The translations under genes were made by a program, and so were the position numbers. From Mobula hypostoma (taxonomy: Eukaryota), in contig NC_086097.1 in assembly GCF_963921235.1 (NCBI RefSeq), positions 173,850,001 through 173,914,000 on the forward strand: a DNA stretch of 64,000 bases, read 5' to 3'. Shown piece by piece: positions 4,464 to 4,697 of the stretch. Each line of letters opens with the position of its first letter. Position 1 is the stretch's first letter. The notes below the pieces were generated by a model that had not been told where the DNA came from, did not search any database, and was given only the letters and a program-made list of their open reading frames with translations.

Positions 4464-4697
4464 AAAGTTGCTGGTGAACGCAGCAGGCCAGGCAGCATCT
4501 CTAGGAAGAGGTGCAGTCGACCTTTCAGGCCGAGACCCTTCGTCAGGACTCTTCCTTCAGTTAGTCCTGACGAAGGGTCTCGGCCTGAAACGTCGACTGC
4601 ACCTCTTCCTAGAGATGCTGCCTGGCCTGCTGCGTTCACCAGCAACTTTTATGTGTGTTGCTTGAATTTCCAGCATCTGCAGAATTCCTGTTGTTTG
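4464..4697 (+). mobile_element. Young palindromic Penelope-like insertion with 15-bp TSD
   Basis: The TSD CCCTTAATAATCTTA is at 4449-4463 and 4698-4712. There are 87-bp inverted arms (4464-4550 and 4563-4649). The sequence matches the 3' terminal repeat of the GIY-YIG-coding copy at 18719-19450. Confidence 0.9.
4563..4598 (+). ncRNA. Minimal type-I hammerhead ribozyme motif in the PLE terminal repeat
   Basis: The sequence is AGTC-CTGACGA-agggtctcggcct-GAAA-C-GTC-GACT. It has the CUGANGA and GAAA boxes, helix I AGUC/GACU, a helix II hairpin, a loop-less palindromic helix III (ACGU), and a GUC cleavage triplet ending at 4594. Confidence 0.75.

What the first reader, a model, noticed from the sequence alone, without database searches (positions are those of the whole stretch)
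4563..4598. Minimal hammerhead ribozyme in the PLE terminal repeat, predicted to need dimerisation
Seen: AGTC-CTGACGA-AGGGTCTCGGCCT-GAAA-C-GTC-GACT has the hammerhead core, helix I (AGUC/GACU) and a helix II hairpin. Helix III has no loop: GAAAC runs straight into GUC, giving the palindrome ACGU. Copies are at 4563 (+, intact), 4515-4550 (-, GAAAG variant), 19334 (+, CUGACGG), 30333 (-, intact), 61321 (-, CUGACAA) and 26212 (-, truncated). Known: PLE pseudo-LTRs carry minimal type-I hammerheads with short palindromic helix III that are proposed to cleave as dimers. Inference: this one processes the PLE transcript and may define the end used in target priming.
Basis: partly seen in the sequence, partly recalled or inferred. 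Interest (0 to 1): 0.7.

Follow-up and report, generated by a model that had tools for sequence, protein, structure and literature searches.

The report
Penelope-element minimal hammerhead, dead copy
This is a real copy of the small loop-less hammerhead RNA motif carried in the end repeats of Penelope-like jumping genes, sitting in a short, hairpin-shaped and likely inactive insertion in what is likely a ray genome, so it is an ordinary example of a kind described in 2014.

Summary
It is a minimal type-I hammerhead (no loop 3, ACGU palindrome) in the pseudo-LTR of a Neptune-like Penelope element; the same GAAA-CG-UC form fills 13 of 56 rows in Cervera and de la Pena 2014. A distant Penelope family (45% endonuclease identity) keeps the core while helix I covaries. 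The focal copy is a 234-nt, ORF-less, head-to-head insertion with a 15-bp target duplication; its transcript is predicted to fold into one long hairpin, so it likely cannot cleave. Even alone, the motif is predicted to prefer an inactive rod, so dimerisation is probably not sufficient. A role in setting the priming end is not supported: element 3' ends lie about 57-105 nt past the cut site, and 6 of 8 short arms span it uncut. The scan noted this family before in the same genome, with the same verdict. Side finding: 3 of 6 insertions sit at the same base of a CR1 LINE motif, a possible target hot spot (n = 3).

The parts
4449..4463 (.). Left target-site duplication (15 bp)
   Evidence: Exact repeat of 4698-4712
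4464..4550 (-). Inverted, tail-less pLTR arm; its 5' end is at the first base of helix I
   Evidence: 1 mismatch in 89 against the forward arm
4515..4550 (-). Hammerhead copy with C15.2 changed to G (palindrome lost)
   Evidence: hammerhead helices I and II are not predicted to form
4551..4697 (+). Forward pLTR arm, 5'-truncated 16 nt before C3, ending in the tail
4562..4599 (+). Minimal type-I hammerhead: helix I 4562-4566 with 4595-4599, core CUGACGA 4567-4573, extra A 4574, helix II 4575-4586, GAAA 4587-4590, CG, UC; predicted cut after C4594
   Evidence: matches the min-HHR consensus of PMC4209133 Fig. S3
4662..4697 (+). About 36-nt 'tail' between the two inferred reverse-transcription start sites
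   Evidence: Tail-less ends pile at the equivalent of 4660-4661 in run X3 (463 + 187 contigs); tail present on one arm in 4 of 4 head-to-head inserts
4698..4712 (.). Right target-site duplication
4150..5000 (-). Host CR1-type LINE fragment (ORF2 C-terminus, MRGDLIETYKIIKG) interrupted by the insertion; CR1 label from recalled motifs
   Evidence: Translation; homologous flanks elsewhere in the window
10208..10373 (.). Head-to-head insert B of the same family, 14-bp TSD
18719..19449 (+). 5'-truncated PLE with GIY-YIG end, 3' UTR, hammerhead (19334-19369) and tail; 9-bp TSD
   Evidence: Pfam GIY-YIG 22.1 bits, cut-off 22.6, E 1.8e-4; 92% to a Mobula hypostoma protein
26115..26262 (-). Head-to-head insert D with truncated hammerhead, 12-bp TSD
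30279..30492 (.). Head-to-head insert C (intact hammerhead 30333-30368 on -), 13-bp TSD
61254..61912 (-). 5'-truncated tail-less PLE with hammerhead 61321-61356 (G8 changed to A); no clear TSD

Best explanation
The motif is a minimal type-I hammerhead sequence in the end repeat of a Penelope-like retroelement, likely of the Neptune clade, and this copy is a truncated head-to-head insertion that is predicted to fold into one long hairpin and so likely does not cleave. SHOWN: motif, copies, GIY-YIG linkage, TSD, inverted arm plus one tail, core conservation with helix covariation in a distant family, neutral CpG-type decay among copies. INFERRED: in the active parent element the hammerhead cuts after C17 only when two copies swap helix I partners and pair ACGU with ACGU, and probably only with help from the element's protein, because the free RNA is predicted to sit in an inactive rod (core GACG paired with CGUC). 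Cleavage likely trims tandem or read-through transcripts, or is dispensable. It does not set the priming end. Reverse transcription likely starts internally about 57-105 nt downstream, at the two sites that bound the tail, on uncut RNA. Priming at both nicks of a staggered cut, then joining of the two short cDNAs, would give the TSD, the tail-less inverted arm and the tailed arm seen here.
For: Descriptor 3 hits against 0.02 per shuffle. GIY-YIG end upstream on the same strand. 57 of 73 distant loci with enough 3' sequence carry the motif 60-190 nt after the endonuclease. Identity over C3..C17 is 20 of 28, against 21 of 60 upstream and 22 of 60 downstream. Two helix I pairs change on both sides (C-G to U-A, U-A to C-G) and three helix II pairs change on one side and still pair. 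The one non-CpG variant inside the motif in run X3 is U11.1 to C (24.3% of depth), which keeps the pair. Whole insert folds as an 87-bp hairpin, -192 kcal/mol. Monomer rod P(G5-C17) 0.98; double hammerhead -11.5 against -22.0 for two monomers and -30.3 for the best dimer. 70 of 83 3' ends in the distant family lie at +80 to +149 from C3, and none within 5 nt of C17 at +27. 6 of 8 short arms in the window span C17-G1.1. Linker CKRNKCYTC in the 92% relative P0001 fits the Neptune CX2-5CxxC motif. Literature: PMC4209133, PMC11167929, PMC3846280 and PMC8557442.
Against: Rfam gives no hammerhead hit. Within the ray family the motif is not better conserved than its neighbours: non-CpG polymorphic sites are 1 of 36 against 12 of 182, Fisher p = 0.70 (4 table rows were not shown). 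In the distant family 25 of 80 copies carry U4 to C and form a subfamily, so a core change spread. Nearest-neighbour energies ignore Mg2+ and core tertiary contacts. The Anolis data come from the Poseidon clade. N7 varies among the 56 published rows, so the inactive rod is not a universal switch.
Confidence: 0.8

Rival explanations
1. One reading: the dimeric hammerhead cuts the transcript and the cut defines the end used in target priming.
For: The motif lies near the element's 3' end (233 nt after the stop). A scan note reports one insertion elsewhere in this genome that starts at the cut site (e1-7790562; unchecked, and it concerns a 5' end). Insert B can be read as two arms meeting at the cut site if two adjacent mismatches are allowed.
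Against: All 3' ends in the window lie 57 nt or more past C17. None of 83 ends in the distant family is at C17. The 12 loose-end rows shown include none at 61324-61325 (550 rows not shown). Insert B reads more simply as arms starting at +24 and +33. Hammerhead mutants did not alter insertion for the Anolis element, and no RNA-seq reads began or ended at its cut site.
Confidence: 0.05
2. The motif is no longer catalytic in this lineage and is kept as a structural, promoter-proximal or protein-binding signal.
For: Predicted inactive rod in both families. A U4-to-C subfamily spread in the distant family. A TATA-like hexamer at about -37 and an initiator-like site at -7 or -8 from C3 sit at matching places in both families (motifs judged from recall). 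Whole PLE clades lack hammerheads (PMC8557442).
Against: All 15 core and helix III letters are identical between the focal copy and locus L014 while helix I covaries, which is the pattern catalysis predicts. Related minimal hammerheads do cleave, weakly as dimers or with protein.
Confidence: 0.12
3. The palindromic insert is itself a mobile non-autonomous family (MITE-like or retrozyme-like) or a host-used ribozyme.
For: Four short head-to-head inserts in 64 kb. A and C share rare variants and the same inverted-arm start.
Against: The four central junctions all differ. There is no tandem direct arrangement as in retrozymes. Core CpG sites decay at the same 9-14% as loop and flank CpG sites. 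The hairpin would sequester the motif.
Confidence: 0.03

Closest known systems
Minimal hammerheads (min-HHR) in pLTRs of metazoan Penelope-like elements (Cervera and de la Pena 2014, PMC4209133)
   Same: CUGANGA, extra unpaired base, G10.1, short helices I and II, no loop 3, palindromic 15.2-16.2. GAAA-CG-UC in 13 of 56 rows of Fig. S3 and the ACGU palindrome in 29 of 56 (my count). Pairs on opposite strands and lone truncated copies are described there too.
   Different: No shark or ray among the 56 rows. The main ray variant has G10.1-U11.1 rather than G-C (C in 24% of depth).
Neptune-type PLE of Acropora digitifera (Table S1 and Fig. S3 of PMC4209133)
   Same: Its printed motif has the same helices and core as the distant family in loci L001-L083 and the same core letters as the focal copy. 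The ray relative has the CX4CxxC linker.
   Different: Different helix I and loop 2 sequences; hammerhead about 104 nt after the endonuclease there, 233 nt here. No RT tree was built.
PAc, Poseidon element of Anolis carolinensis (Frangieh et al. 2024, PMC11167929)
   Same: pLTR hammerhead; two internal start sites that bound a tail; hammerhead inactive without protein, which fits the folding prediction here.
   Different: Poseidon clade. Its ORF starts inside the hammerhead, which could not be checked here because the window holds no 5' ORF.
Inverted pLTR plus tail plus TSD insertions of EN+ PLEs (PMC3846280, PMC8557442)
   Same: Head-to-head inverted truncated copy, 30-40-bp tail on one side, short TSD.
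   Different: TSDs here are 9-15 bp (8-10 bp in the rotifer examples read). Three of six insertions share one CR1 base, which the passages read do not describe.
Non-LTR retrozymes (bioRxiv 10.64898/2026.07.22.740005)
   Same: Type-I hammerhead derived from PLE pLTRs; found there in the one chondrichthyan sampled.
   Different: Retrozymes are direct tandem arrays; this is an inverted pair.

Membership tests
PLE minimal type-I hammerhead | Core CUGANGA, GAAA, UH in type-I order | tested here: met
PLE minimal type-I hammerhead | Unpaired base after A9 and a G10.1-C11.1 pair | tested here: met
   Extra A present; pair is G-U in the focal copy and G-C in 24.3% of X3 depth and at 19334
PLE minimal type-I hammerhead | Palindromic 15.2-16.2, loop 3 absent or tiny | tested here: met
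   ACGU; kept in the distant family
PLE minimal type-I hammerhead | Helices I and II supported by covariation | tested here: met
   Between families: 2 two-sided and 3 one-sided changes. Within the ray family only 1 one-sided change
PLE minimal type-I hammerhead | Located in the pLTR downstream of an RT/GIY-YIG ORF, sense strand | tested here: met
   Copies at 19334 and 61321; the focal copy itself has no ORF
PLE minimal type-I hammerhead | Self-cleavage after H17, better as a dimer | not testable with these tools
   Folding predicts inactive alternatives
Rfam hammerhead families | Covariance-model match | tested here: not met
   No hammerhead hit at E up to 10
EN+ PLE insertion | Inverted 5'-truncated arm, 30-40-bp tail on one side, TSD | tested here: met
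   4 of 4 short inserts; TSD 15, 14, 13, 12 bp
Neptune clade of PLEs | CX2-5CxxC linker before the GIY-YIG domain | tested here: met
   CKRNKCYTC in P0001 (92% identical); the window fragment keeps CYTC, with the first C lost to truncation; definition from PMC8557442
Neptune clade of PLEs | RT phylogeny | not tested
   No RT of this element in the window
Non-LTR retrozyme | Direct tandem repeats, each with a hammerhead | tested here: not met
   Copies are dispersed or inverted

The most novel reading that the evidence does not exclude
This ray Neptune-like element homes on a specific base of the CR1 LINE ORF2 end: inserts A, C and E join the host at the same homologous position and in the same orientation, in host copies only 68-76% alike. 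That would be a retroelement targeting another retroelement's coding motif, perhaps through the zinc-finger linker. In addition, its abundant short copies may be strong-stop-like cDNAs that run off a transcript starting just before helix I, which would put the hammerhead at the 5' cap as a protein-gated decapping switch.
Probability: 0.3. Interest if true: 0.55.

Novelty: new member of a known kind. Interest (0 to 1): 0.2.

Why it matters
As given, little: the loop-less ACGU hammerhead is the commonest published PLE form, and this copy is likely a dead fragment. The function of PLE hammerheads is still an open question (PMC8557442). A young family with very many copies makes it testable by end mapping, and the evidence here points away from a role in priming. 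If the CR1 hot spot holds genome-wide, it would give a natural DNA substrate for studying how a PLE endonuclease chooses targets.

Tried and rejected
No whole genome is held, so no genome-wide end or target mapping was possible. Rfam scan: no hammerhead. An exact degenerate motif scan of metagenome contigs found 0. Viral contigs: 0 of 30 candidates confirmed. Sequencing runs: no RNA holder listed on record; X13 is only guessed to be RNA, so nothing is claimed on expression. Raw-read runs X21 and X22 laid 0 reads, so they are no test. Loose-end piles at 61354 and 61356 (164 and 628 contigs) first looked like truncation at helix I, but their consensus letters point at least partly to another subfamily that diverges there, so they are not counted as evidence of a 5' boundary. 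A pile at 61319 (337 contigs, agreement 0.64) suggests that such a subfamily shares mainly the hammerhead, which is suggestive only. A splice acceptor with a TACTAAC branch point before helix I (as in D. virilis) was considered: the branch A varies (G 38.7%, T 19.1%) and none of the 15 joints shown of 33 fits such an intron, so it was dropped. 5' ends at +30 to +35 in the distant family scattered on re-alignment; of 23 ends listed the nearest to +28 were +30 and +34. The 3' stem-loops do not fold better than shuffles (z -1.57 and -0.87; the hammerhead alone -1.24). A protein search for CR1-PLE junction peptides found 0 of 12 with the CR1 motif ahead, but most join at what look like exon boundaries, so it is inconclusive. 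Lunse et al. 2017 (dimer cleavage) is not held and may already list shark or ray motifs. Part 3 of the PMC4209133 supplement and the bioRxiv supplements were not seen.

Full report
Observation. The 36-nt motif is at 4563-4598 (+), with C17 at 4594, and the five further copies are as listed. A minimal type-I descriptor finds 3 sites in the window against 0.02 per dinucleotide shuffle over 300 shuffles; the sites are one repeat family. Rfam finds no hammerhead at E up to 10. Helix I has 5 pairs. Helix II is best read as an unpaired A, then GGGU/GCCU closing CUCG, which is the register of the published consensus.

Context. The focal copy is the forward arm (4551-4697) of a 234-nt insertion. Its other arm (4464-4550) is an inverted copy with 1 mismatch in 89. 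A perfect 15-bp duplication frames it, inside the ORF2 end of a CR1-type LINE on the minus strand (CR1 label from recalled motifs). It has no ORF of the element. Three more head-to-head inserts (B 10208, C 30279, D 26115) have 14, 13 and 12-bp duplications. In 4 of 4, one arm carries a tail of about 36 nt and the other does not. Two longer truncated copies link the motif to a GIY-YIG domain (Pfam 22.1 bits, just under the 22.6 cut-off), which is 92% identical to a Mobula hypostoma protein, so the window is likely from a myliobatiform ray. That relative carries CKRNKCYTC before the endonuclease, fitting the Neptune linker as defined in PMC8557442 (passages). This changed my first guess of Poseidon. 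Inverted arm, tail and TSD are the standard PLE layout (PMC3846280 and PMC8557442, passages).

Conservation. Run X3 laid 121,977 contigs on 61240-61500 (summed contig depth, not a copy number). Inside the motif, every variant shown at 3% or more is a CpG-type transition (C7 13.7%, G8 up to 14.4%, C15.2 9.6%, G16.2 11.0%, C17 8.7%, G1.1 10.1%, G12 4.5%), at the same rate as loop 2 (8.9, 10.7%) and a flank CpG (15.0, 12.3%). The one exception is U11.1 to C (24.3%), which keeps the pair. Copies therefore decay neutrally. Across families it is. The 83 loci of a distant PLE (40-52% identity) carry the motif about 104 nt after the endonuclease; 57 of 73 loci with enough sequence have it. Identity is 20 of 28 over C3..C17 against 21 of 60 and 22 of 60 in the flanks. 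Two helix I pairs change on both sides and three helix II pairs on one side. Against this, 25 of 80 aligned copies have U4 changed to C and form a subfamily.

Folding. The free monomer is predicted to pair core GACG with CGUC on top of helix I (P 0.98). The double-hammerhead fold scores -11.5 kcal/mol, against -22.0 for two monomers and -30.3 for the best dimer, which uses the overlapping GUCGAC palindrome (duplex -7.5 against -1.7 for ACGU). The distant family behaves alike (-9.5 against -26.6). These energies omit Mg2+ and tertiary contacts, but they agree with weak dimer activity in PMC4209133 and no activity without protein in PMC11167929. A transcript across the focal insert is predicted to form an 87-bp hairpin of about -192 kcal/mol on either strand. 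The two copies are inverted, so they cannot act as a dimer in one transcript, and the minus-strand copy has lost the palindrome.

Priming end. Counting from C3, with C17 at +27, the window's tail-less ends lie at about +84 to +96 and the tailed ends at about +128 to +130. In X3 the tail-less ends pile at +93/+94 (187 and 463 contigs). In the distant family 70 of 83 ends lie at +80 to +149, and the nearest to C17 are +33 and +4. The 5' ends of the eight short arms are at about -16, -4, -4, 0 to +4, +8, +24, +33 and +72, so 6 of 8 were copied across an uncut site. This matches internal priming at two sites that bound the tail, shown in vitro for the Anolis element, where hammerhead mutants did not change insertion. 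Dual priming at a staggered cut with joining of the cDNAs is my inference for how these inserts arose; fold-back self-priming (PMC3846280) is an alternative. Arms of one insert differ by 1 base in A, B and C, which fits either.

What is known. PMC4209133 (main text parts 1-2 of 4, supplement parts 1-2 of 3) defines the loop-less form. By my count 13 of 56 rows of Fig. S3 read GAAA-CG-UC and 29 have ACGU; none is a shark or ray, and the Acropora row matches the distant family. Also read: PMC11167929 parts 1-2 of 4; bioRxiv 10.64898/2026.07.22.740005 part 1 of 5 and passages; PMC6765202 passages; PMC2377424 abstract and passages. Lunse et al. 2017 was not held and is known here only by title and the review's summary. 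A search for Penelope, hammerhead and shark listed 4 papers, none on this by title. Earlier scan notes on this genome reached the same verdict; they are unchecked AI notes, not support.

Side finding. Inserts A, C and E join their hosts on the tail side at the same aligned base of the CR1 motif MRGDLIETY..KG, in the same orientation. The hosts are 68-76% alike, and C's host is closer to an empty copy (83 and 87%) than to A or E. The inserts differ by only 3 of 123, 10 of 126 and 8 of 102 bases, and each duplication carries its own host's letters, so they are likely independent events. Five clear and two doubtful empty copies of the site exist in the window. A crude, after-the-fact uniform model gives about 3e-6. 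The other three inserts lie elsewhere, n is 3, and A and C share rare variants, so carry-over of a CR1 flank in a source RNA could explain the site as well as endonuclease preference. Searches for such targeting found 0 papers with all terms and 12 with three of four terms, none on this by title; a search for strong-stop with Penelope and hammerhead found 0.

Verdict. Observation confirmed; identity supported; activity of this copy unlikely; priming role not supported. New member of a known kind, interest 0.2. Most novel reading (CR1 targeting, possibly a cap-proximal gated hammerhead): probability 0.3, interest 0.55.

Noticed in passing
window 4698, 30493, 19451: Three of six PLE insertions join the host at the same homologous base of a CR1 ORF2 C-terminal motif, same orientation; 5-7 empty copies of the site in the window (for example 16482, about 26506, 21420, 57668, 6546).
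   Followed up: partly
P0016-P0027; antisense of window 4551-4688: The antisense strand of the pLTR (tail through hammerhead) appears as an in-frame peptide of up to 46 residues inside 12 annotated Mobula proteins of unrelated genes (adenylate kinase 8, SGT1, Tim8 A, mago nashi and others), like Alu exonisation. The acceptor lacks a pyrimidine tract, so these may be annotation artefacts (paper search listed nothing on it by title).
   Followed up: partly
L014:1957-1987 and window 61360-61388: TATA-like hexamer about 37 nt and initiator-like site 7-8 nt before C3 at matching positions in both families; would place a transcription start just before helix I.
   Followed up: partly
L006, L011, L012, L023, L025 and others: A subfamily of the distant PLE has U4 changed to C in the hammerhead core (25 of 80 aligned copies).
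   Followed up: partly
L044:2030 (-): A canonical-looking type-I hammerhead with a 6-bp helix I and a longer palindromic helix III, apart from the PLE motif.
   Followed up: no
window 10236-10307: Near-perfect hairpin at the centre of insert B; gives a spurious MIR391 Rfam hit (41.6 bits, gathering 70).
   Followed up: yes
window 88-200 and 37158-37310: Decayed copies of an older hammerhead-bearing subfamily; run X3 loose ends suggest a subfamily that shares mainly the hammerhead with the focal one.
   Followed up: partly
window 604-1494 (-): Tc1/mariner transposase fragment, 296 aa open (Pfam HTH_Tnp_Tc3_2, HTH_SB, DDE_3).
   Followed up: no
window 49606-50259 (-): Possible hAT transposase C-terminal fragment (weak Pfam hit, E 0.079).
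   Followed up: no
L081-L083: PLE endonuclease fragments, two with the hammerhead, in contigs filed as bacterial MAGs; likely animal-host contamination.
   Followed up: no
window 33323-35437 and 44996-45094: Nested inverted repeats (I10, I11, I16) and a short AT-centred hairpin; not examined.
   Followed up: no
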